Source: Ginglymostoma cirratum (Eukaryota). From it: DNA of 64,000 nucleotides. Where the stretch lies: contig JAHRHZ010000058.1 of NCBI GenBank assembly GCA_024137785.1, positions 19,951,349 through 20,015,348 on the forward strand, in the 5' to 3' direction. Made by a program: the position numbers and the translations under genes. The notes under the pieces were generated by a model. That model was not told the DNA's origin and searched no databases. It saw nothing but the letters and a program-made list of their open reading frames with translations. Shown in pieces: positions 1,254 to 59,410 of this stretch; position 1 is the first letter of the stretch, and each line of letters opens with the position of its first letter.

Positions 1254-1409
1254 ACAACACAGTGTGGAGCTGGAGGACCACAACAGGCCAGGCAGCATCC
1301 GAGGAGGGACCCTTCTTCAGAGATGCTCCTCTTATGCAGCCTGGCCTGCTGTGTTCCTCCAGTTCCACACTGTGTGGTCTTTGACTCCATCATTGGCAGT
1401 TCTAACTAT
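1254..1409. mobile_element. Palindromic non-autonomous Penelope-like element (family A) with 16-bp TSD
   Basis: Inverted arms cacagtgtggagctggagg..caggccaggcagcat / atgcagcctggcctg..cctccagttccacactgtg. Direct repeat ctctgtcttgtattag at 1238-1253 and 1410-1425. Confidence 0.8.
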
Positions 1410-6110: not shown

Positions 6111-6631
6111 ACCCTTGACAAGATTTAGGTTGACTGATAGCCAGATCACAATGTAATTGAGGTATTTTGGACCTGATGATTTAAACTTTTCACTTGAGGC
6201 ACTTTTAAGTGTTAATTGATTCTTCTATCACACTAACTTTCTTTATATTTTGTGCAACGTAGTTTGTTTTCCCATAATGTCTTAAAATTTGATCAGTCAA
6301 AAGGTTGAAGCTGATCAAAAATGCCCATGAGAGCATCTAATTTTAGGCAATTTTTTTTATAGATACTTGCCTAAACAAATGTCACTGGCATTTTGTTTGA
6401 ATATTAGACTGATTGTTATCTATGATAACCTTTGTACTTCTGTTTGAATTTTTTTGTAGTTTTAAAATATAAACTTTTTCATGGGACCATGTGGCTTAAG
6501 TGTTTAAAAATGAAATGGTTTATCTTTGTGTAGTTCTGAATTTATTTTTCAGTCTCTTTTATTTTTCTGGTTTTTTTGGCGTTTGTTAGCATGGCAGCAG
6601 TCAAAACCTGCTGCAATAGTTGCTTCTAAAT

Positions 6632-6845
6632 TAAAGCAAAATACCAAGGATGCTGGAAGTCTGAAACAAACACAGAAAATGCTGGAGAAATCAGCATGTC
6701 TGGCAGCATCTGTGGAGAGAGAAATGGAGTTGACATTTCAAATCTAATGTGACCACTTCTTAAAGTCCTATTGAACTTGAAATGTTAACTGTTTGTTCAC
6801 TACAAATGTTACCTGCTGAGATTCTCCAGCTTTTTCTGTTTGTAC
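6632..6845. mobile_element. Palindromic Penelope-like element (family A), old copy
   Basis: cagaaaatgctggagaaatcagca..gagttgacatttc / gaaatgttaact..cctgctgagattctccagctttttctg inverted arms. Confidence 0.7.
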
Positions 6846-8043: not shown

Positions 8044-8210
8044 TAAAATATCCTGCACGGGTGAACGTGGTAATCCAAGACCAGATAAACTACAAGGGAG
8101 TTCATTTGGTCCAGTCATGACTCAGAAGTAATGGTAATCAGACAGCCGGGCTAACAGAAGGTATGAATGGTCTTATGAGTGGAAAAAATCAACATCCTTC
8201 CAAATATATA
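8044..8210 (+). repeat. Copy 1 of a ~166-bp local direct duplication (partner 14425-14590)
   Basis: Direct alignment by eye: about 9 substitutions and 1 indel. Confidence 0.95.
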
Positions 8211-8225
8211 GTGCTGCATTGTGTG

Positions 8226-11955: not shown

Positions 11956-12258
11956 GGCATTAGAAAGAGCGACATATGGAGAAATAAATTTATGAAATGT
12001 ACATTGGCAGCCTTGTATGAATGGGTTCAGTGGCAGAGGGTGAAACCTTGAATTGGAGCAGCGGATAAAGAACAAAGATAGGCTCCCTTTCAGTGATATC
12101 ATTTTTATTTTGAAGTTATTCAAAATGGTGCCAGAGTGTTGGCGACAGTTGAAGCTTTTCACTGTATTTTCCCTTAAATACATGTGATAATAAATCATTC
12201 AATCGAAAATAACAATCACTACAACCAAATTACAAAATGGAAACATATGGTCTATCAA

Positions 12259-12494
12259 AGATACTAAGAACTGCTGATTCTGGAGTCAGAGATAACAGTG
12301 TGGAGTTGGAGGAGCACAGCAGGCCAGGCAGCATCAGAGGGGCAGGAAAGTTGATGTTTCGGATCAGGACCCCTCTTCAGAAGACTTGTGTCTTAGACCC
12401 TTCAGAAGAAGGGTCCCAACCCAAAATGTCAACTTTCCTGCTCCTCTGATGCTGCCTGCCTGCTGTGCTCCTCCAGCTCCACACTGTGTTACCT
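12259..12494. mobile_element. Palindromic Penelope-like element (family A) with 15-bp TSD and two hammerhead-like cores
   Basis: TSD catatggtctatcaa at 12244-12258 and 12495-12509. Inverted arms ~90 bp. Minus strand 12380-12352 reads CTGAAGAggggtcctgatccGAAAcatca. Confidence 0.85.
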
Positions 12495-13039
12495 CATATG
12501 GTCTATCAAGTCAGCTTTCGTGCTGGAATCTGACTTGTCCAGTATTACTATCAGCTGAGATCCTGAGACCCTCAATTATTGTTTTCCAAAGTATCTCTCT
12601 TTACCTTTTGTTTTAATCCTACAGTAAGACACAAGTCTTTCACCATTTGTGTAAAACAGTTGTGTCCTGTTGTCCTTTTTTGAACCGGTAATTATATTAA
12701 ACATGGTAGTCACTGCCTTTTCTGGTTTATAAACTGTTTCAGCAATATTTAAATAAAACAGCCTCAAAAGAACACCCCTACTTTCCTTCCATTCCATACA
12801 TCAACTATCCTTTTAGACTGTCTACCTGAGGCCTACCAAATAATAGAGAATTGTGGAAAGTATTTTGGACGACGCTCAACTCTAAAGTGACTGTGATGAG
12901 TCTTCCCTAGTGCCCTTCAAAACTTGTTTCACCCAGGTATTTGAACATTCATCAGAGAGGAGACTTCTTATTATCTGCCTAGGCGTAACTTAAACTCAGA
13001 TACCAGAGTTGAATGAGTCGAACATTAAAAAAAAATCTC

Positions 13040-13225
13040 AAATACTGGGGATGCTGGAAATCTCAAGCAAACAGCGAAAATGTTGGAGAATCTCAGCAGG
13101 TCTGAGTTTCGGCTGTGACATAACTTCTTCAGGGTTCTGAAAAAAAGTCAAATCGGACTCGAAATATTAACTCTCTCTACAGATGGTGCCTGACTTGTTG
13201 AGTTTCTCCGGCATTTTCTTTGCTT
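13040..13225. mobile_element. Palindromic Penelope-like element (family A)
   Basis: gaaaatgttggagaatctcagcaggtc / gacttgttgagtttctccggcattttc arms. Central ttcttcag..ctga..agtc(aaatcg)gactcgaaa. Confidence 0.75.
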
Positions 13226-14424
13226 ATTTTATAAAGCTTGTGAACTGAGCTGAGACTGTCAACATTTTTTTTAATGGTTTTGGAGAATAATGTGAAAAGC
13301 AGTGACTTATTGGCAGAGAATTGAGAGAAGGGCGAAGATCTCCAGAACAACATGAAATGTATTATACTGCACAACCTAATTAAACAAGGGACAAATTGAC
13401 AGTGCGCATCAGCTAACCCTTCAGAGAATTAGCGGTCAGTCATCAGAGAGAGGCTAGCAATCTTCAGATAGTTGTACGACGAAAATAACTTTAGTTCATG
13501 TCAACCAAACGACAGATCGATTTACTCATTTCTGAAAAACAGATACGCAAAACGTCATTGTTTTTCATAACGTCTCCATCTCAACTCTCCAGGATACATC
13601 TGATAAATCCAGACCCCAAATTGGAAATTTTGCTTAATTTCAAGGGCCGATATTCAACTATTTTCAGAAGTCCTGATTGTTTTCGTTCATTTTTAGATTT
13701 TATTTTAATGTAGTCTTTTGAACTAGTAAAGGAGATTGTATTGAAATGTGTTTCGGGTTGATCAAGCGACAGATTCAAGAACTTTGTACAGAATCAATTT
13801 TTTTTAATCGCAGGATAGCAGTTGTCGTCCTAAGTAATGAGACAAGGTGACATTTCAGTGGTTCTGGCAAAGCAACAACATAGCACCAATGAGAACATCC
13901 CAGTTTATCACGATAGATGATGTTAATGTGAAAGGGAACTCGGGATTGCGATATATTTCGCCGTAACAATACTAACTCTATCACATTTACTGTGATTGGG
14001 AACTATAATTTTCCAGATTTAATTTCGAAATTATCTGTGCTAAAGACATGACATGCAGGCTGAACTGGATCTTTAAAATCTATTTTCGTCATATAACCTC
14101 TTGTTCAATCCCGCCCATTTGCCGTCTATTGCTGATCAAATTCTACTTAACCGGGCGTTTATAACTATTTCATTTTAAATCCAAATTAGCACTGAGAATT
14201 TTAAACGACACGGTGTGAGGTGTTTGTAAATGATAAAAAAAACAATAATTCAGAAGTCCAAAGAGAAGGGGCTTTCAGTTCTCTGATGCATTTCAGCGGA
14301 TATTTAAAATGCATTAATTTCGAGGTAACTTCGTGTGATTCTTTAGAATTGGGTCGTGCTGTTTATTGTCATATTTATAGAAGCCATTGCGAAGTAATAC
14401 GGTTTCGGTTGTTTTCTTTTGTTT

Positions 14425-14590
14425 TAAAATATCCTGCACGGGTGAACGCGGTAATCCAAGGCCTGATAAACTACAAGGGAGTTCATTTAGTCCACTCGTG
14501 ACTCAGAGGTGATGGTAATCAGACAGCCGGGCTAACAGAAGGTATGAATGGTCTTATGAGTGGAAGAATCAACATCCTTCCAAATATATA
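14425..14590 (+). repeat. Copy 2 of the ~166-bp local direct duplication (CpG-retaining copy)
   Basis: Aligns with 8044-8210. Confidence 0.95.
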
Positions 14591-17500
14591 TTGGGGCCAA
14601 TATCAAAAAAATGTCAGTACTATCTATAAGATAACCAGTAAAACTAGAATAAACTTTAGTAAATTCTACTTTTGCCACGGGCTAATTCCAGGTTAGGACA
14701 CGAATCGTCGATGGAGACGATAAATCAGCAAATACGAGGGGGCTTTAAATTACGTAGCGGTGCCAAACCGGGTTTAACTAGTATTCAGAAGTCCCCCAGA
14801 CCTACTCGGGACGTTAGGAACTTACCCGGAATTACATAAAATTCTTGCCAGCCCATCAGTGGCGCTCTGAAAACATTTAAATTCTAAAAGCGGAAAGGAG
14901 AAATATGTACGCGAATGGAAACCTAGAATTCTCTCACGGTCCTGAGCAGTGGCTTGGCAGCCACGTCATAAAATCTAGTTCTGCCAGGTCAGACTCAGCT
15001 TTGTAGTTAAGGTCGCAAACTTTAAAGTAGCCGAATAAACATAGGTAATGACAGATGTAAATAAACCCCCTGTGTCTAGGGCCGCATCTTTAAGTGAATC
15101 ATTCCCAGTCACTGCTCCTCCGAGGGTCCCATCGTTAACAATCTGCGCAACGTCTTTGGGTTAACATGGTTAAATAAATCAAATCCATACATTCTTCGAG
15201 TGACGAGCTCTTCAGGGGTCAAGCAATCACACTTAATCCAAACAGTTTTGTTTTAAACACGTGGGAGAGACAATGACCATAAGCACTGTGATGTTGCATT
15301 TCTATCTATAAACAGTATTACTTTCAAGCTGTCTACTATAATTGACTGATGCCGTGGTGTAATGGACGGTTTAGGTAGAGTAAATTAGTTAGGTACCTTT
15401 CCCCCCAACATTTTATTGCTGCTTCAGACAATCTTCCTTTAAAAGTCATTCTGATTTTTTTTTTGTGGAGCCAGTCTTTCCAGACAAGTTGGAATGAATT
15501 ATGTAATCGGAGAAGTGGCCGGACAGTGAGTTCAAACTTTCTTCTGAAAACGTTGCCTCTAGCAATACTATGATATTTTAGGTTCTTAACTTTTGTATAC
15601 ATCAACTTAATATTAAATCCCATGGCTATTTTAGGAAGAGTTATGAATTGCAAAGAAGCGCAGCACGAAATTCTCATTAAATGGTATTATTTCCTTATAT
15701 TTGGTATTAATTGGTTTCAATGTTTTTCTTGTATAGTCTAGGAGTAAATTACAGTGTTACCCCTAAAACGTAGTGAGGATGGATTTTTGATTTTTTCGTT
15801 TTTTGACCTGGGCGGACGACCGAGGACCACAAACTACTCTCTATTGACTGGATTCCCTAGAATCATGGCTCTGATCTGGATCCAGCCTGATGAATGTAAA
15901 AGTATACCTTTTTGGCTTGCTTTGCTCTGCACGAAAATTACGAAGGATATAGTATAATTGGAAACATTTTGTTTCCTGCCAGCGCCTCAAGGTTTGACGG
16001 TTTGCAAAAAAAATGTATTTTAAAGCATAAATAATTTTAAATAAATCACTTTATCAGAGTTAAATCATTACCAGAACCTTAAGACTGATAATATAGTCAG
16101 ATTATAAAAGCAATCCCCCTCCATACCGATACCACCCCACACAAGCTCATACAAATAGAAGCACGGATTCTGTTGTCATATTGACACAAAGACACACACA
16201 TATAAACATGTAGGCAATGATGCTGACATATTTGACACCGATAGTTAGATATGCACGTGCACACATTGCCGCATGTATAGATGTTACATTCTCACATACT
16301 CAAGCACAACAGCATACAAATCTAACATTTTATAAGTGAGTTTAGTTTTATTTCATCCTAACCCAGCAAAACGTCTTCAGCGTTAAAATCTAAACATTTT
16401 CAGATTAAACAAACTGTGGCTTGTCTTTCTCTCTAGATTAATAATCAGGAAAGCACATTAGGAATTATAAAACGGCAGGAAAGTAATGTAGTAATTCGTA
16501 ACAATTTCGGCTTGTGTTTTTCGGCTGAGATAAGACTTGAGAAGTAAAAATATAAGACATCGTAAGTATGTATTCATTTTATGCGAGTGTTCACAAATGC
16601 ACATTACGTATGTTCTTCCTGATGCGCTGATCAAAGGACATGGATCTATCATTGACATTGCACACCGCCGTTTAAATGGGTAGGCGTGTTCATGTGATCT
16701 CAGGTCAAACCAAGCTCATTCTCGATTTCATGTGGCATGCATCAGCAGAGGATTGGTTGTTTCTTTTACCTATCAACATATCCAAGTCTATGCTATGCTA
16801 TGCACTGTGCCAACCAAAAAATACGCACAAAAGAACGCGACCTGATTTTAGAATTCAATTAAGTTTAACCTGCTAGTCAATAAAATCATTTAAAATCAAC
16901 TTGCATAAATGCGTAGGAAGGGAAGATAATTAGTAAATCTAAATGTAATGTGCCTGTTAGTGCACAATTCTGGAGTTTCTGAGCATCTGGGAATGCACGG
17001 TAACAATTAAAACCACGTTGACAAATAATTTATTTAAAAGATGACAACAATGATTTTTGAACGACCCGTTTACGCTTATTTCAAATACGAGCCTAAGTAA
17101 TCTGATGTTCGGTATTGCCATCCGTTTGTATCATGCCAGTTTCATATATGTCCTGCCATTACAATGTTTCTGTGAATCGCTATTGAAAAGAATTCCTCTA
17201 TCATAATCCTGTGTGGTTACACAGAAGACATATTCCATAAAGACGTTTGAAACTATTAGTGAGACGAGCCCAAGAAATGATCCGTGAGGCGCGAGAAGGG
17301 GGCACATATATATTGGGCTGGGACATTGGAGATATTAATCAGATGGCAATGCTGGTCACGTGACATACTACCTACACGACGTTTCACTTGGAATATTAAT
17401 TTTGATGTGCTATCTTTGATTTAAAAATCATTTGAAACTATTTTATCCTCGCAACTGAAGAGTTTTATTTTTATGCCTAAGCATTTAACTAATTTACATA

Positions 17501-29590: not shown

Positions 29591-31644
29591 TAATATTTAG
29601 TTTTCGACTACCGTTTATTTTTAGCTCTCGCCATTTGATATAGTTCATTGGAAAAATGGGTAACGGGGTAAAGGGTTGTTTTCACAGGTCTTTCACTGCT
29701 AACAAACCACGTAAGAAATATTGTCTCAATGCAGCGCTTATTGCTAGTGTTCTGCGCCTGTGCTAATGGTAGCTGAGCGCCAAACGACTCTCGGTTTTCA
29801 ATCAAGTATTTTAAAGTAATGCGAAGTGTTATTTTAAGACCTAAATCGTTGCTTAATTATTTACCTTCAATATTATGGAAAGATGTAATTCATTTCGCTA
29901 TTATAAAAAGAAGCAATGTACCTCCAGGGTAAGCGAGCGCTTTCTTTTGCGGATGTTTGACATTAGAAATAAGGGGAGTTCAAGCCGTACAGTCAGGTTA
30001 GGCGTGAAAACAGACATCTTTGCAAACCCTTCTACACATAATTAGTTTATGATTTTAATTTAAAGCCTACAGGACCAAAAATGTTGGCATTCAGAACTTG
30101 CTTGCCATATTTAATCTCAAATTCGCTACTCACACTGAGGCAAATTCCTGTGTTACATTGTATCATAGACGCAATTGCCGCTTTTTGAAATCGCATGTTT
30201 TAAATAAATGGTGGGAAATCGTGGTCGATCTGTTACGTTGGAGAATATTAGCATCTAGAGAGTGGGCTTCAGCATCAGACCGATTGAGACTAGATATCCA
30301 GTTATCTCATTGTTAAGTCATTGACTCGAACCCGAAAGCATGACAGATACGTTTCCAGGAACCATGAAAAATGGCAAAATGTATTCACTGCAGGAATAGA
30401 AGTTAAAGATGCATGCTCACGATTTCCTTTCGCCTATATACTATATCTTATTTCAGGACAGACCACCCCCTGCTGTCTGAACCTAGTTGCACAATACTGA
30501 CCAGTGTTTTTCCGACTGAGATAATTGTTTCTGTGGGTACAAGTTTACTAAACCTGGCAATTGACGCATATTTTCTGCTTTAGTGTTCGATTTAAAACCA
30601 TGACGGCATCAAGCCGGACCCAAGAGCAGGGAAACTGGGGGCCATCTCAGATATAAATTGTAAAAGTTGTGACGACGTCATCATAAAGGCCATGTTGCAC
30701 ATCCATTAAATGGGATACTGCAAATGCTTTTCTCCATCGGATTGGCCAATTTACTCTTTAACGGGGTTATCAGTGTGAACCTTTTCACTTACTTCACGTT
30801 TCCATTCAATGTCGTCGAAATAGCACGATGGTGTCACGCAATAATGCTGTGACGATTTCCCAAATGCTGTAACCCAGGGCTGGGTGGAAAAGTTCTTCAG
30901 TCATAGCCAATCCTCATGAAACAGAAATCGCCATTTTTGCGTCCCAGCTCAACTTATTTAGGTGACCAGCAAAAAGTGAGCCCCAAACTGTTCACCATTC
31001 TGCTGTGCGGTTATCATCGAAACTTGAAACATTTTCCCCCATCTTCCTTGTGAGTAGATATGTAACACATGACCAAAATACACAACCCACATATAGAATA
31101 CGTGTAGCGTACGAACAGAAAATGCAAAACGTTAATATGCAGTACACACACAGTACACATAACACAAAGCACAGCACGTAAGAAAATGCAAAGAAAGACT
31201 GAGTAGCTATTTGTTGAGGGCCAGAGAGAAGACAATTAAATATTAAAGTTTATGGTTGGACTGGAGGTACTTCGACGCTTATTTATAGTGTAAATGTAAG
31301 AAAACTGTAAGGGAAGAGTAGTCCCTGGAACAATGGGAACTTTCAGACTGAGAACTGTGCCTCCGAGCCACATGGGAAAAGATTTTAAGTGAATCAAAAC
31401 AACAAATACACGACAAATTGAAACACTCCCATCCACAGTATGATCCACTTCCACCACTGTGGTCAGTTGTGTTATGTTCTTTGGAAGACCTCATATAAAA
31501 AATGCCATCAATACCGCAGTGTGTTTGACAAATATTCAGATTGCTTTTTTGCAAAAAAAAAACTATCAGCAGGTTTTTGGTAGAAGTGATTGTTGCCATA
31601 TCATACAGGTGAGAGAAGTCCAAAGCACACTGTTTTGGTAGAAT

Positions 31645-31820
31645 ACAGCAGCAAAACACTGGGGATTCTGGGAATTTGAAATAAAAGTAGAACATTTTGT
31701 ACATTCTTAGCAGATCAGCCAGCATCTGAAGAGTGGGAAAAATTGGCATTTCAGGTCTGTCATCTTTCATCAGCACATTTCATAGAATGCTGTCTGACCC
31801 CAGGCTATTTCTGTATCTTC
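31645..31820. mobile_element. Old Penelope-like palindromic element remnant
   Basis: aaacactggggattctgggaatttgaaataaaa..ccagcatctg. Minus strand reads CTGATGAaagatgacagacctGAAA. Confidence 0.55.
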
Positions 31821-33683: not shown

Positions 33684-34193
33684 AGACGTGGGGCTAGATG
33701 AACACAGCAGGCCAAGCAGCATCAGAGGAGCAGAAAAACTTGACGTTNNNNNNNNNNNNNNNNNNNNNNNNNNNNNNNNNNNNNNNNNNNNNNNNNNNNN
33801 NNNNNNNNNNNNNNNNNNNNNNNNNNNNNNNNNNNNNNNNNNNNNNNNNNNNNNNNNNNNNNNNNNNNNNNNNNNNNNNNNNNNNNNNNNNNNNNNNNNN
33901 NNNNNNNNNNNNNNNNNNNNNNNNNNNNNNNNNNNNNNNNNNNNNNNNNNNNNNNNNNNNNNNNNNNNNNNNNNNNNNNNNNNNNNNNNNNNNNNNNNNN
34001 NNNNNNNNNNNNNNNNNNNNNNNNNNNNNNNNNNNNNNNNNNNNNNNNNNNNNNNNNNNNNNNNNNNNNNNNNNNNNNNNNNNNNNNNNNNNNNNNNNNN
34101 NNNNNNNNNNNNNNNNNNNNNNNNNNNNNNNNNNNNNNNNNNNNNNNGCCTTGTTATCTCGGATTCTCCAGCATCTGCAGTACCTTTTATCTC
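33684..34193. mobile_element. Family-A palindromic element spanning the assembly gap, 15-bp TSD
   Basis: TSD taatgtataaaagtg at 33669-33683 and 34194-34208. Left arm acagcaggccaagcagcatcagaggagcag..tgacgtt; right tail ctccagcatctgcagtacc. Confidence 0.8.
33748..34147. other. Assembly gap (400 N)
   Basis: Run of N. Confidence 1.
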
Positions 34194-45815: not shown

Positions 45816-46524
45816 TTATTACGAAAGTATTGTTGGTGCCAAATGGGTCTTTTTTAAAACTGATTGCTTTATTTTATTTTTTAATAATAACGCTATATAC
45901 ACGAGTCAAGCAGACAAGATACACTGGGCATTTAAAATATTTTGATTTTATACATACAGAGACTCAAATTGCTTGTTTGCTTTTTGATGCCCCAGTTTTT
46001 AAAGTTCTGCAGCGTATATGAAGATAATTGCACAAAATGCGCTGGGCGGCCATCCTTTCCCACACTGCATCCTTTCCCAACTCTCTCCCAGTGCACATGC
46101 ACCCCATCTCAAATCTCTTATTGGCCATTTAAAAGAAAGCCAAAACTAGTTCTATAAACGTTCCTCGCTTGGCTTACTGCAGGGCGATTTCAACTGAGGT
46201 TTGGCTGTCTAGGAAATGTAAAGTTACACATCAGCCCAACATTTAGATATTATTAAAGCAGAATTGGAAGTGCGTGTAAAAAGTCCTAATATAATGACTG
46301 GTATATACCAACCAAGGCACAATGCCCCTAATTAGTCTAGGGCCTCGTCATCACTCCGCAAGAATTTGTATTGAAAGTGCCCCTCTCAATATAGTCTTTT
46401 CAGGTAATATAAGTATCGAATCAGAAGTGGGAAAAGTGGGATAAATTGAACGGAAGAGTCATCCCTTGAACAGAAATAGGTCATCCAGCGCAACTGATAC
46501 TGTATTCTATATTGAAACAAAGCT

Positions 46525-46690
46525 CTGCCGATGATGAAGATCTGAAACAAAAACAGGAATTGTTGGAGAAACTCGGCAGGCCTGGCTGCATCTGTGGAGA
46601 GAAAGCATAGTTAATATAGAAAACGTTAACTCTGCTTTCTCCCCACAAATGCTGCCAGACCTGCTGAGATTCTCCAGTAGTTTCTGTTAA
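46525..46690. mobile_element. Family-A palindromic element, centre deleted
   Basis: ttggagaaactcggcaggcctggctgcatctgtggagagaaagcatagttaa / ttaactctgctttctccccacaaatgctgccagacctgctgagattctcca. Confidence 0.8.
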
Positions 46691-47944
46691 TGTTTCCTAT
46701 GTTACTTGCCTCCGTAAACTATTTAATCTAAATCTGTAATCAAATCTCTCTAATTTCATTCCCCTCTGGCTTCTCTTCATGCATCTATGCCAATTCGCTT
46801 TGCATGAGCGAGTTTTCTATCTACTGTTAATAATTAATGTTTCGACTAAGTTTTGAAGACGAATGCAAGGTGTTAAACACCAAATATATGAAGGAGAGTC
46901 TCAAAGTACAAAATACCAGTTAGTGGCTAAGAGATTGCCATTATGAAGCTGGGAGACTGGGAAGGGATAGCAAGCCTGCTTCTCATGAGAATCGGGTGTG
47001 TGCTCCAGATATGTGTTCTTACAAGATCGAGGGAAGCTACCAGGAAAACTGAAAATAAGGCCACATTTCTTGAAGTCAAACCTGGGAGGGGTTGTTTGAC
47101 AGGACATTGCTTTAATGTTTGTTACTCTAAGAATAGACACCGAACAACGAAGTGGAACCCGCTGTAAAGTTGTTTCAAGCAGTACTTTGACCCTTGCGAT
47201 CTTCCAGACAATATCCCAAGGGGCTTACCTCGACAAGTCCACCATTCAGAATGTGTTGGCATGTTGAAAGGAGAAAAGGCATTGACCCTCGGATTTCTTT
47301 GGGTAGATATTTCCCAAAGCCTATCTGCCTGCCTTAATTCCCAACTTCCCTAAGAACAACTCGGCTGCTCCAGTGTTTCTTTCATTCAATTTTTAAAGCG
47401 GCTGTCTGCTTAAAAAAAACCTTTGAAAAGCTAAAGCAGAAAGAGGGAGGGACAGTTTGAGCAGAGTGGAGTTTAGTTTAAGGTTGTCTTCCTAGATGAT
47501 CATTCACAGTTATAAATTGTTGAAAAGTGCGGCTGACTCTTTACTCTTAACTAGTCTCGACACGTTTTGTTTTCACTTGAATTTTATTATGACAAAGGGG
47601 TTATTTGCAACGTTGCAAAAGTAGATTCAATGCAGTAACCTTCGTTTTATGTTGAAACTGTGGCTTTAACACGTTGTTACCTTATTTTAAATGCGCATAA
47701 TCATGATCGAAGTTGCTTCTTGATATAATATTTAAAAGTTTGGAGGAATTGTCAGACACTCAGAACCATGTGGCCTCCTTTTGATTGCGGTGTGCAATGT
47801 GGAACCAACGTAAACCGCCTGGGTCACTCAAAGAGGCCAGGGTCGGGGGCAGTTGTAGCAGCAGCTTTTTCGGTGGACAGGGAGGGGAAACTGTCCAGGT
47901 CAGGAACATTCAAAATGGGTACACAACAGGAGTAATATATCAAC

Positions 47945-48165
47945 AAATTACTACGGATTCTGACTATCTGAAACGGGGGGAAAAAGTGCTGGAGAAACCC
48001 AGCAGGTCTGGCAACATCTCTGTGTGAGAGAGGGACAGACTTAATGTTTTCGGTCCAGCGATCATGTATCAGAACTAAACTGGACTCGAAAGTTAACTCT
48101 GCTTCTCTCTCTCTCTCAACAGATGCTGCCAGACTTGCTGAGTTTCTTCAGAACTTTCTCTGCTT
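47945..48165. mobile_element. Family-A palindromic element
   Basis: gctggagaaacccagcaggtctggcaacatct / agatgctgccagacttgctgagtttcttcag arms; ggactcgaaagttaact remnant. Confidence 0.75.
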
Positions 48166-48364
48166 GCGATACTCAACAGGAATTATAGGGCATATTTTCA
48201 CGGGTGTGCTTCGCTCTTTCGTGCTAACTTATTAAAATATAAATTATTCTAATGATGACTCCGAAATATGACTAATTGTTTACTTTTGCATAAAGCTATA
48301 AATTCTACTTAACTTTCAATATACACATTTGCTTACTGTATGTCTACTTGGTTGTTTATTTGAA

Positions 48365-50659: not shown

Positions 50660-52660
50660 AATAATAATATTGCAAATGTTAACAGTAAACCTGAGAATTG
50701 GAAGTGTTTTAAAGACCTGCAAAGGGGGACTAGAAAATTGCTACTAGGAAGAACATACAAAAACATATGAGAGTAAATTAACCAGGAATACAAAAACAGA
50801 TTGTAAGCTTTTACATAAATTGCATACAATGAAGACTAGATAATTAAGGGCCTAATAAGGATGAGGAATTTATGGCAATTAATATCAGAAGGGCAACTGT
50901 ATTAAAGAACCTAAAAGATTAAAAGGGAACAAATCACAAGACCTAAAGCTCAGGGTTCCAAAAGGGATGGCTGCAGAGATGGAGGATACATTAGTTATGA
51001 TTTTCTAAACTTTCCTAGGGTTTAGAATCGTTCTTGTGAATTGGAAGTTAAAAAAAATGCAACACTACCAATTAAGAAAGGAGGAAGACAGAAAAGAGGA
51101 AACTGACCAATTAGTCAGCCATCAATCATCAGAGAAATGCTGGAATGTATGATGAAGGAAGTCTTAACAATGTACTTAGAAAACAATTGTATGATCAGAC
51201 AAAGTCACCACAGCTTTGCAGAAAGGAATCATGATTGAAAAATGTATTACAGATGTTTTCAAGCTATAACTAGTTGGTAACTAGTAACTAACAAGAGAGA
51301 ACAAATAGATGTAGCATACTCAGTTTTCCAAAAGGCACTCAATGAACTGCCAGTCAAAAGGTGAATACACAAAATAAGGACTTATGGAGTTGCAACTACA
51401 TTAACATCGTTGCAGGATTGATTAAATGACTCGAGATATGGAGCATGAAAAGGAAATTTACAAGTTGGCAGGCTGTGACAAATGGGTGTCATAGGGATCA
51501 ATGCTGGGGCACACAGCAATTTATAAATTATATCAATGACTTAGATGCAGAGACAACAAATAATGTGACTAAAAATGGAAAATGCTAGAGAAACTCTGGC
51601 TGTATCTGTAGAGAGAGAAACGGAGTTTATGTTTTGAATTCCAGTGACTCTTCACCAGAACACTGTACAGCCCAAATTTCTAACAAAGGGTCACTGAACT
51701 CGAAACATTAATTCTTTTTCTATATAGATGCCTCCAGACCTGTTGAGTTTCCCCAGCACTTTATGTTTTTATTACAGATTTCCAGCATCTACAGTTCTTT
51801 GTTTTATAATAATGTGATCAAATTTGTAAATGATACAAAGTTAATTAGCACTGCAAACTGAAATTAAGACTGAAAGAGGTAGAGTCATGTTAAGTAATAA
51901 TGTTAACAAAATGGCAGATAGAGTAGAATATGAGGAAGTGTGAGGTTATTTATTTTGGCAGAAAAAACAAGGAAATAGAAAAGGATAGTTTTTAATAGGC
52001 TTGAAAAGTTTAACTGGAGTCAGAGAAATTTGGGTGTTCTCCTGGACAAATAAGATATGTTCATATTATTGCAGATGATTCAAGAATAAAGAGGTCTTGC
52101 TGCAATTATTTTCGAGCTTTGATGAAATCAGACCTTGCTTATTGTGTGCAGTTTTGGCTTCTGTATTCAAAGAAGGTTACATTTGCCTTGGAGGCAGTAT
52201 AATGAATGTTTACTAGCTTGGGTCTTTTTTGGATGCAAGTTGTCATATGTTGAGAATCTGAATAAATTAGGATTATAATCCTGGATTTAAAAGAATGAGA
52301 AGTGATCTAATTGAGACACAGAAGATTTTGAAGGAAATTGATGAGGATGAGATTTCTTTTTATTGGCTGGACAATCTAGAAAATGAGACACAGTCTCAGG
52401 ATATGGTATTGATTGTTCAGAATTTGGATAAGGAGAAATTTCTACATTAACAGCATTATGAATCTTTGGAATTGTCTCCACTGGAGGGAATAGATGTTCC
52501 AGCATTGAGCATATTCAATACACAAGTGGTAGATTATTTCAGGGAACTGACAAATATAGAGAACATACAAGAAAGCAGAATTGCAATAGATAATTAGCCT
52601 TGATTTTATTGAATAACAACGAAGGCCTGTTTGGTCTACTTGTGCTCATGTATATTATGC
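50660..52660 (+). mobile_element. Decayed CR1 LINE (RT region to 3' end)
   Basis: YINDLDAETTNNV[insertion]IKFVNDTKL; a GSMLG motif near 51495; CR1-like 3' end near 52650. Confidence 0.8.
51569..51807. mobile_element. Family-A palindromic element inserted in the CR1 RT, 10-bp TSD
   Basis: aataatgtga at 51559-51568 and 51808-51817. Removing the insert restores the RT motif. Confidence 0.8.
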
Positions 52661-57204: not shown

Positions 57205-57345
57205 AAGCAATTTACTGTGGATGCTGGAAATTGGAAACAAACACATAGAATGCTGGAGAAACTCAAAAAATCTGGCAGCATCTATGGACAGAAAAGTGCT
57301 GCCAGACCTGTTCAGTTACTTCAGAATTCTCTGTGTTTGTTTCAG
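57205..57345. mobile_element. Family-A palindromic element, short
   Basis: gaaacaaacacatagaatgctggagaaact..tctggcagca / tgctgccaga..agttacttcagaattctctgtgtttgtttc. Confidence 0.75.
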
Positions 57346-58655
57346 GATAGTGTGCTCTTTGGTGGAGGTGAACTGCTTACATACCACCACCCTGAGATTG
57401 CAGAGATGCTATTAAAGAAGCTTGGGTGAGTTGCTACAGTGCATCTAGTAGCTTGTCTTGGAGGAAGTGAATGTTTACCTTGGTGGATGGAGATCCAATC
57501 CAGTAGTTGCTTTTGCTTGAATAGTATTGAGTTTCTTGAGTTTTGTCAAATTGCACTCGTCCAGGCAAGTGGAAAGTATTCCATCAGGGAAAATGATGGA
57601 CTAGTGGTATTAATCCAAAGACCAGGTAAAGTTTTTGGGGGACCCTGTTTTAAATACCACCATAACAGATGGTGGAATTTGAATTCAATCAATATCTGGA
57701 ATTAACAGTCTAATGATGATGGTGAAACTGTTTTGGATTGTTGGGGGAAAACCCACCTGGTTCAATTAAATGCCCTTTAAGGAAGGAAACTGCCATCTTT
57801 ATCTGGCCTGATTTACATGTGACTCCAGATGGCAAGGTGGTTGACTCTTAACTGGCAATTAGGGAAGGACAATAAATGCAGCCCAGCCAGTGATGCCCAC
57901 ACCCTGGAATGAACTTTTAAAAAAGCACACTCTGAATTACACCTTGTAGGTAGTGAAAAGCTTTGGGAGTCAGGGGGTTCTTCATGCAGCAAAATACCCA
58001 TCCACTGATCTGTTCTTGCAGCCACAATAGTTGGATCACTTACCTATCTGATCAATGGTAGCACACAATAACTCTGAACATCAAAAGTGGGAGACACAGC
58101 ATTGACAATGCTGTTGAACATCAAAGGATGATGGTTAGGTTCTCTTTTGTTGGACGTAGTCATTGCCTGAAACTTGTGAAACATCATTATACTTGGTACT
58201 TATCAACCTAAACCATAATGCTGTCCAGGTCTTGATATCTGCAGGCATGAACTGGTTCATGATTGGAGAGTGAAAATGGAACAGTGCAACCATCAATGAG
58301 CACCCCCACCTCTGACCTTATGATTGCGAGAAGGTCATTAATGAAGCACTTGAAGATGATTGGGCCGAAGATATCAGCAATGCTCTTGGGTTGAGACAAT
58401 TGGCTCCCCAAGCCAGAACCATCTTTCTGCACTAGGTATTACTCCAACCACTAGACTTTTATGCACCTGAATGTCACTGACTTCAATATTATTGTACATG
58501 TTGCTATTACTTTCAGTCAAATATGGCCTTGCTATCAAGGACAGTCACTCTCACCTGAACGCTGGAATTCAGCTCTTTTGCCATGTTTAGACTAAGGCTG
58601 TAATGAAGTCTGGAACTAAGTGGCTCTGCTGGATCCCAAACTAAGCATCAGCTTC
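57346..58655 (-). mobile_element. Decayed LINE (family of 3858-5830) with a nested tRNA-SINE at 57593-57915 (+)
   Basis: Minus ORF 58208-58432 IFGPIIFKCFINDLLAIIRSEVGVLIDGCT is a decayed RT motif. The SINE sits after tattccatca. Confidence 0.7.
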
Positions 58656-59086
58656 TGGCAAAAATACCTGTTCTGAGCAATAGTCTATGAGAATGTAGTT
58701 GGAATGGCACAACTAGAAGTCTCTCTCCGAAGAAAGAAGTCCTCTAAATATTTTACAAGACCCCGATGGAAAAAAAAAATGTTCCATTAATGATATTTTC
58801 CTTGAATAGAATTCCATACTCTTTTAAAACTAATAAACAACTGATGCTATCAAGAATAGAAGTTGTATTGCTGTTCTGCATCACAAACCTGATCCAGGAA
58901 AATATCTAAACCACAGTTAGAATTCTGATGGTCTGAGCCATTTCCCATTCTACTGAATTCCTCATTCAAGCATAAAATTTAAATCTGTGATACTGATCCA
59001 GGTTTGTAATGTTTCTTGATTCAGCAACCTGTTGTTGTCCACATTCAATCCACAATTCGCTGCTAACTAGACTTAACATTTTGAAT

Positions 59087-59236
59087 TAAAACCAAAAGAA
59101 CTGCGGATGCTGTAAATCAGAAACAAAAACAGAAGTTGTTGGAAAGGCTCAGCAGGTCTGGCAGCATCTATGGAGAGAAATCAAAATTAACATTTTGCAT
59201 CTGGTGACTGTTCTGAGAAAGGATCACCAGACCTGA
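59087..59236. mobile_element. Family-A element with one full arm and a very short second arm, 12-bp flanking direct repeat
   Basis: aacattttgaat at 59075-59086 and 59237-59248. Confidence 0.75.
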
Positions 59237-59410
59237 AACATTTTGAATATTGACTACTTTATATGAAAATCGTCTGTCTGAGTTTTGACAAATATGTTAA
59301 ACCATTCATTGAAGTCCATCATCCTTGGAACTATTCTTATAAATCATTCTGACATCCTCTCCAATGCACTCACAGCTTTCTTAAAGTACGGTGGCCAGAT
59401 TTGGACATGA

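What the first reader, a model, noticed from the sequence alone, without database searches (positions are those of the whole stretch)
12259..12494. Palindromic insertion family carrying back-to-back type-I hammerhead ribozyme cores (Penelope/retrozyme-like)
Seen: at least 11 related ~140-250 bp elements (1254, 6632, 12259, 13040, 31645, 33684, 46525, 47945, 51569, 57205, 59087). Each has one arm with an extra tail plus a truncated inverted arm. Near the axis the arms carry CTGANGA-hairpin-GAAA. At 12380-12352 (-) it reads CTGAAGAggggtcctgatccGAAAcatc. At 12403-12430 (+) cagaagaagggtcccaacccaaaatgtc looks like a CpG-decayed CTGAAGAAGGGTC..GACCCGAAACGTC. At 13133-13172 ggttCTGA..agtc(aaatcg)gactcGAAAtattaact has a ggtt/aact stem I. 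Known: Penelope-like elements carry minimal type-I hammerheads with a tiny palindromic stem III (ACGT) thought to act as dimers, and they often insert as inverted truncated pLTRs. Inference: this is a highly amplified non-autonomous PLE family whose RNA was processed by self-cleavage. The copies here are mutated and probably inactive, and stem II is preceded by one extra purine relative to the canonical core.
Basis: partly seen in the sequence, partly recalled or inferred. Interest (0 to 1): 0.7.

Follow-up and report, generated by a model that had tools for sequence, protein, structure and literature searches.

The report
Two-armed Penelope retrotransposon insertion stumps
These short mirror-image inserts are real leftovers of a very abundant Penelope-type jumping gene with a known miniature ribozyme motif; each was likely built anew by copying the start of the element's uncut RNA onto both ends of a DNA break, so they are not a new self-spreading ribozyme family.

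Summary
Real, of a known kind. 12259-12494 is a head-to-head pair of arms inside a 15-bp target-site duplication (TSD). The same arm ends RT+GIY-YIG Penelope-like elements (PLEs) in this genome (Neptune/Nematis-type linker) and runs straight into their ORF start. Of 56 short pairs, 52 are tail + tailless, 40 have 8-18 bp TSDs, and no two share a centre sequence. The hammerhead is the published PLE minimal type; its extra purine is a conserved trait, not a defect. Arm ends show slippage, a non-templated C and re-copied ends, which fits run-off at an RNA 5' end four bases before CUGA; the two arms often differ at source-polymorphic sites, which fits two templates. The scan noted similar palindromes before (88 notes, at least 11 genomes) with a similar reading.

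The parts
12244..12258 (.). Left copy of 15-bp target-site duplication
   Evidence: Identical to 12495-12509
12259..12289 (-). 31-nt 'tail' of the long arm, between the two PLE 3' ends (+94 and +126 from C3)
   Evidence: 3' ends bimodal among 76 unbiased arms; tail on one arm only in 52 of 56 pairs
12290..12352 (-). Body of the long arm; in the parent this is the start of the ORF (first in-frame ATG near +46)
   Evidence: Arm runs in frame into the ORF N-terminus in L214; junction reads in polyA RNA (loose end at 1568)
12353..12380 (-). Minimal type-I hammerhead core: CUGAAGA, extra G, 4-bp stem II, GAAA, stem III decayed from ACGU to ACAU, C17
   Evidence: intact form has 2,335 exact genomic matches
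12381..12402 (.). Unique 22-nt centre joining the two arm starts; includes re-copied arm sequence
12403..12430 (+). Broken hammerhead core of the short arm (U4 and G12 lost, stem III decayed)
12431..12494 (+). Body of the tailless arm
12495..12509 (.). Right copy of the TSD
1254..1409 (.). Family A pair, core partly deleted, 16-bp TSD
33688..33747 (-). Family A arm cut by a run of N (33748-34147)
6627..6844 (.). Family B pair, old; no clear TSD
13031..13231 (.). Family B pair; plus core lacks G8; no clear TSD
31642..31778 (-). Family B arm with tail and core; no partner arm detected by the profile
46506..46699 (.). Family B pair, both arms start inside or after the core
47936..48166 (.). Family B pair with 12-bp imperfect TSD
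51570..51810 (.). Family B pair, tail on the plus arm, 10-bp TSD
57205..57347 (.). Family B pair with no hammerhead core left
59084..59242 (.). Family B pair with a core-only second arm, 12-bp TSD overlapping the arm end

Best explanation
The element is a short, doubly 5'-truncated insertion of an RT+GIY-YIG Penelope-like element of this genome, likely made when the element's enzyme cut the target with a 10-18 bp stagger and copied uncleaved element RNA from both nicks. Shown: the arms are the element's pLTR (hammerhead plus ORF start); there are two 3' ends about 31 nt apart, one per arm; TSDs are variable; arm starts pile up 0-6 nt before CUGA; cleaved RNA was not the main template. Inferred: each nick primes at one of the two internal start sites described for the anole PLE, giving tail and tailless arms. 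Priming in the 5' pLTR copy runs off the RNA's 5' end after about 100-130 nt, probably a capped start at the A four bases before CUGA. The two cDNA ends are joined by microhomology, filler or snap-back synthesis, often from two different RNA molecules. The hammerhead is a passenger in these copies.
For: Parent: the arm lies about 270 nt after the ORF stop in ORF-bearing copies (exact core motif found in 22 of 30, visible with 1-2 changes in 7 more). L097 has a 786-aa open frame with RVT_1 (5e-6, under Pfam's cut-off) and GIY-YIG (5e-5, over it), plus DKG and a CX4CxxC linker. Long copies share the anatomy: L097 has a 550-nt inverted arm and a TSD, L098 has two ORF-bearing arms. Family B arms also follow GIY-YIG remnants (L070, L020, L147). 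Of 56 family A pairs, 52 are tail + tailless (24 of 27 outside the similarity-picked set, p=2e-5); TSDs in 40 of 56 vs 5 of 548 mismatched controls; all centre sequences distinct. Of 76 unbiased arms, 33 start in -10..+8 and 1 in +25..+33; family B gives 35 and 0 of 51 despite different upstream sequence. Template-end signs: T-run of 4 or more in 22 of 103 short vs 1 of 53 long arms (p=6e-4). After the terminal T of 4-A arms the next base is C 42, A 5, G 53 in the first 100 of 1,716 matches (hand count); the parent templates G, so C is non-templated; about 7 show the end re-copied. Two templates: arms of one element differ at non-CpG polymorphic sites in 9 of 26 and 8 of 28 pairs vs 5% background. 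Literature: inverted pLTR, 31-bp one-sided tail and TSD in Pen2a_Av; two internal RT starts, both strands cut and extended, uncleaved RNA used.
Against: PolyA RNA-seq shows no pile-up of molecule starts at the proposed 5' end (weak test, dominated by read-through of dead copies). The first cap-G test was weak (G 32, A 46, T 22 of 100; p=0.03). The non-templated C can also come from realignment on the template rather than a cap. In D. virilis the start site lies 46 nt before a 75-nt intron that ends at the hammerhead, so a start at -4 is not general. In the young subfamily simple centres recur, and one 22-nt centre occurs at two places with unrelated flanks (L231, L233; tail on opposite sides). 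Arms of one element share more rare variants than chance (15 vs 4.1), so some pairs come from one source. 29 of the 56 pairs were picked by similarity to the window copy.
Confidence: 0.85

Rival explanations
1. A non-autonomous, retrozyme- or SINE-like family: the palindrome is transcribed, cut by its hammerheads and re-inserted as a unit by the PLE enzyme.
For: Very high copy number (2,846 young palindromic centres); recurring simple centres in the young subfamily; palindrome joints appear in polyA RNA.
Against: Distinct centres in 56 older pairs; no separate clustering of tail and tailless arms (0.887, 0.871, 0.876); continuum of arm lengths up to kilobases; ends avoid the cleavage site; transcript is one hairpin; RNA reads come equally from both strands.
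Confidence: 0.05
2. Fold-back or self-priming from one molecule (Arkhipova et al. 2013): the second arm is copied from the first, or from an antisense transcript.
For: Published model for head-to-head PLE inserts; short snap-back pieces are seen in centres; excess of shared rare variants between arms.
Against: Arms differ at source-polymorphic sites far above background; pairs with tail and tailless arms reaching different depths into the ORF; filler centres, one with telomere-like repeats.
Confidence: 0.12
3. Same twin priming, but the pile-up at -4 is an RT stall or an endonuclease cut at ATT in the 3' pLTR rather than run-off at an RNA 5' end.
For: Family A has a C-rich tract just upstream; the anole enzyme prefers ATT at the ORF-pLTR junction; no RNA start seen.
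Against: Family B lacks the C-run and has AGTT rather than ATTT, yet piles up at the same place; end slippage, non-templated C and re-copied ends fit a template end.
Confidence: 0.25
4. A MITE or other DNA transposon with long terminal inverted repeats.
For: Palindromic outline only.
Against: TSD 8-18 bp and variable, ends asymmetric, arm continuous with an RT ORF.
Confidence: 0.01

Closest known systems
EN+ PLE insertions with inverted pLTR and tail (Pen2a_Av, PMC3846280; general scheme in PMC8557442)
   Same: Head-to-head inverted pLTR, 31-bp tail on one side, TSD, pLTR covering the first codons of the ORF.
   Different: Here both arms are usually cut down to the pLTR alone and number in the order of 10^5-10^6; TSDs are mostly 10-16 bp (9-10 bp in the rotifer examples).
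Poseidon_Ac (PAc) of Anolis, in vitro (PMC11167929)
   Same: Hammerhead at the ORF start, two internal RT start sites bounding the tail, both strands cut and extended, uncleaved RNA as template, no RNA ends at the cleavage site.
   Different: PAc is Penelope/Poseidon clade; this ORF has the Neptune/Nematis linker. The parts I read do not describe pLTR-only palindromes, a 5'-end pile-up or two templates.
Metazoan PLE minimal hammerheads (PMC4209133)
   Same: CUGANGA, extra nucleotide between 9 and 10.1, G10.1-C11.1, palindromic 15.2-16.2, pairs on opposite strands 100-700 bp apart ascribed to truncated PLEs.
   Different: Stem II is shorter (4-5 bp), stem I only 2-4 bp in family A, and the two cores are 0-40 bp apart; cartilaginous fish are not named in the parts I read.
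Retrozymes (PMC6155905, passages)
   Same: Small hammerhead-bearing retro-inserts.
   Different: Retrozymes carry a hammerhead in each LTR for double self-cleavage of one RNA into a circle; here the cores are on opposite strands and ends do not follow cleavage.

Membership tests
EN+ Penelope-like element | One ORF with RT and C-terminal GIY-YIG linked to the arm | tested here: met
   L097: RVT_1 5e-6 (below Pfam cut-off), GIY-YIG 5e-5 (above); DKG and RYIDD present; arm about 270 nt after stop. No full-length intact copy seen.
EN+ Penelope-like element | pLTR shared by the 3' end and the ORF start | tested here: met
   L214 arm runs in frame into the N-terminus; junction reads in RNA
EN+ Penelope-like element | 30-40 bp tail on one end; inverted 5'-truncated copy; variable TSD | tested here: met
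Neptune or Nematis clade | CX2-5CxxC linker before GIY-YIG and CCHH motif | tested here: met
   CNRRKCYTC linker, CTRC and two histidines in the EN; definition
Neptune clade specifically | RT phylogeny with reference elements | not tested
   No reference set in hand
PLE minimal type-I hammerhead | CUGANGA, extra nucleotide, G10.1-C11.1, GAAA, palindromic ACGU, H17 | tested here: met
   134 family A cores: extra A 130, G-C pair 112 (G-U 16), CGT 82 with the rest CpG-type decay; the parse requires the core, so this shows pattern, not frequency
PLE minimal type-I hammerhead | Stem covariation | tested here: inconclusive
   Family B (13 cores): stem I pair U-A 10 / C-G 3 (p=0.0035), stem II G-C 7 / A-U 3 (p=0.045); few lineages. 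Family A stem I third pair is mostly a U-C mismatch
PLE minimal type-I hammerhead | Self-cleavage as a dimer or with protein | not testable with these tools
   No RNA ends at the site in one polyA run
Retrozyme | Two same-strand hammerheads, ends set by cleavage, copied as a unit | tested here: not met
MITE / DNA transposon | Symmetric TIRs and fixed short TSD | tested here: not met

The most novel reading that the evidence does not exclude
Up to about a million fossil integration products record the PLE mechanism in vivo: a dimeric enzyme loads two separate RNAs, primes both nicks of a 10-18 bp staggered cut at the two internal start sites, and runs off a capped 5' end whose first four bases are the hammerhead's stem I. 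There the telomerase-related RT slips, copies the cap and sometimes realigns to re-copy the last eight bases, like telomerase repeat addition.
Probability: 0.4. Interest if true: 0.6.

Novelty: new member of a known kind. Interest (0 to 1): 0.3.

Why it matters
As an element it is ordinary: the architecture, tail and ribozyme type are published. Its value is as a large natural read-out of PLE integration, whose later steps are still unvalidated (PMC11167929). The strict tail/tailless pairing, the arm mismatch and the end signatures make twin priming, two templates and a start site at stem I testable, and argue against the published self-priming model. The group covered 9.6% of 344 kb sampled, so it is also a major part of this genome and a cause of assembly gaps.

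Tried and rejected
Rfam scan: only weak miRNA-hairpin and one snoRNA match, no hammerhead family. Pfam on four short frames of L043: nothing. PDB sequence search: two irrelevant weak hits. No PLE ORF remnant in the window itself. Arms starting at the cleavage site: 1 of 76; among 100 listed of 1,233 joins between +18 and +33, about 40 use the TTTC/GAAA microhomology and about 8 could end at +29 (hand count). Arms ending at the cleavage site: 4 matches vs 6 and 3 at control positions, so the core-only arm at 59207-59242 is best read as microhomology. G-quadruplex or poly(C) roadblock as sole cause: family B lacks the tract. Splicing within the 3' UTR: no skip joint among the 15 best-supported joints shown, 152 not shown. 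Within- vs between-element identity in young copies was uninformative because 9 of 15 loci had an arm in N. Run X23 gave only 28 reads. 24 of 60 sampled stretches were all N and were left out. Sequence look-up in earlier notes found nothing.

Full report
Observation. The element at 12259-12494 is as described. It has a minus-strand arm with a hammerhead core at 12380-12353 and a 31-nt tail, a 22-nt centre, and a tailless plus-strand arm with a broken core. A perfect 15-bp TSD flanks it. Either strand folds into one long hairpin of about -161 to -165 kcal/mol (z about -16 to -17), which buries the core. All 11 listed places are hit by a profile of the group and fall into two families; three of them hold no complete core. 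The genome (G000, 4.36 Gb) looks like a cartilaginous fish; that is from my recall of such repeats and from earlier notes, not from a call.

Abundance. An exact 35-nt intact core has 2,335 matches with 0 in the reversed control; one young palindromic centre pattern has 2,846 places. Sixty 10-kb stretches were fetched at fixed positions; 24 were all N, leaving 343,853 bases with 113 arm hits, which extrapolates roughly to 10^6 arms. Arms and ORF pieces covered 9.6% of those bases.

Parent. Of 30 loci picked by the core alone, several ran upstream into a pyrimidine-rich UTR and an RT/GIY-YIG frame. That protein piece had 140,866 first-look candidates in the genome. In 30 top loci the core lay about 270 nt after the stop (exact motif in 22). 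L097 has a 786-aa open stretch with RVT_1 and GIY-YIG matches, DKG, RYIDD and a CX4CxxC linker, which Craig et al. give for Neptune and Nematis. In L214 the arm continues in frame into the ORF's N-terminus, and RNA reads hold that junction. So the arm is the pLTR, as in Pen2a_Av and PAc. Long copies show the same head-to-head, tail and TSD anatomy (L097, L098). Family B arms also follow GIY-YIG remnants. No complete intact copy was seen.

Anatomy. Among 76 unbiased family A arms, 3' ends are bimodal (about +91-101 and +125-127). Among 56 short pairs, 52 are tail + tailless, 40 have TSDs of 8-18 bp (control 5 of 548) and all centre sequences differ; 29 pairs were picked by similarity to the window copy, and the other 27 give 24 (p=2e-5). 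Tail and tailless arms do not form separate groups. In the young subfamily simple centres recur, and one complex centre occurs twice with unrelated flanks and the tail on opposite sides, which fits repeated formation better than copying.

Hammerhead. The motif matches the PLE minimal type, including the extra nucleotide that Cervera and de la Pena call conserved; they also report opposite-strand pairs from truncated PLEs and only low in vitro activity. Family B shows compensatory pairs in stems I and II on 13 cores; family A's stem I is weak. Cleaved RNA was not the template: 33 of 76 arms start in -10..+8 and 1 near +29 (family B: 35 and 0 of 51), joins between +18 and +33 are dominated by microhomology, and 3' breaks at the site are not enriched. 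This agrees with PAc, where unprocessed RNA is the main substrate.

Why arms stop at -4. The pile-up holds in two families with different upstream sequence; both have an initiator-like A at -4 (consensus recalled). Short arms have lengthened T-runs (22 of 103 vs 1 of 53). After the terminal T the next cDNA base is C 42, A 5, G 53 in 100 listed of 1,716 (hand count); 35 of the C's cannot come from the partner arm, and about 7 begin a re-copy of the end. Many G's begin snap-back copies. I infer run-off at an RNA 5' end, probably capped. Against this: a first test was weak, polyA RNA shows no start there, and D. virilis starts further upstream.

One or two templates. Within 31 pairs of the window's subfamily, arms differ at two non-CpG polymorphic sites in 9 of 26 and 8 of 28, against 5% background and 46% under independence; they also share more rare variants than chance. 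A mix, with many pairs from two RNAs, fits best and argues against pure fold-back.

Known or new. The architecture, tail and ribozyme are in print. Searches found no paper on hammerhead-bearing PLE palindromes in sharks; Repbase and Dfam could not be searched, and I read no supplements (those of PMC4209133 and PMC11167929 may bear on this). Seen: PMC11167929 and PMC4209133, parts 1-2 of 4; PMC8557442, PMC3846280, PMC2377424 and PMC6155905, passages only. Earlier scan notes (88, at least 11 genomes) reach a similar reading; I looked at them after forming mine, and they are not independent support. Verdict: new member of a known kind, interest 0.3, with a testable mechanistic side result.

Noticed in passing
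L187 centre (G000:C4, near 6,798,400): Centre filler holds several TAACCC units, telomere-like DNA captured between the two arms.
   Followed up: no
window 33748-34147; L226-L240: Runs of N often start inside an arm of young palindromes (9 of 15 loci), and identical centres recur 434-460 bp apart; likely assembly gaps at hairpins, so young pairs are under-assembled.
   Followed up: partly
window 8044-8213 and 14425-14593: Two direct copies of an unrelated 170-bp repeat.
   Followed up: no
   Followed up: partly
L060, L043: 26 nt before the core: The parent's pyrimidine-rich 3' UTR ends in a good 3' splice-site look-alike; in family B parents an AG sits directly before stem I's end, recalling the D. 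virilis intron that ends at helix I. No splice joint among those shown.
   Followed up: partly
run X22 on L097:1540-2440: About 0.4% of read records (49,591 of 12.9 million) lie on this 900-bp stretch, equally from both strands at the arm; hairpin RNAs from read-through could feed small-RNA or dsRNA-editing pathways.
   Followed up: no
L216, L225, L198 (ORF N-terminal region): Variable-number T/A/D/P-rich tandem repeats upstream of the RT's first conserved motif.
   Followed up: no
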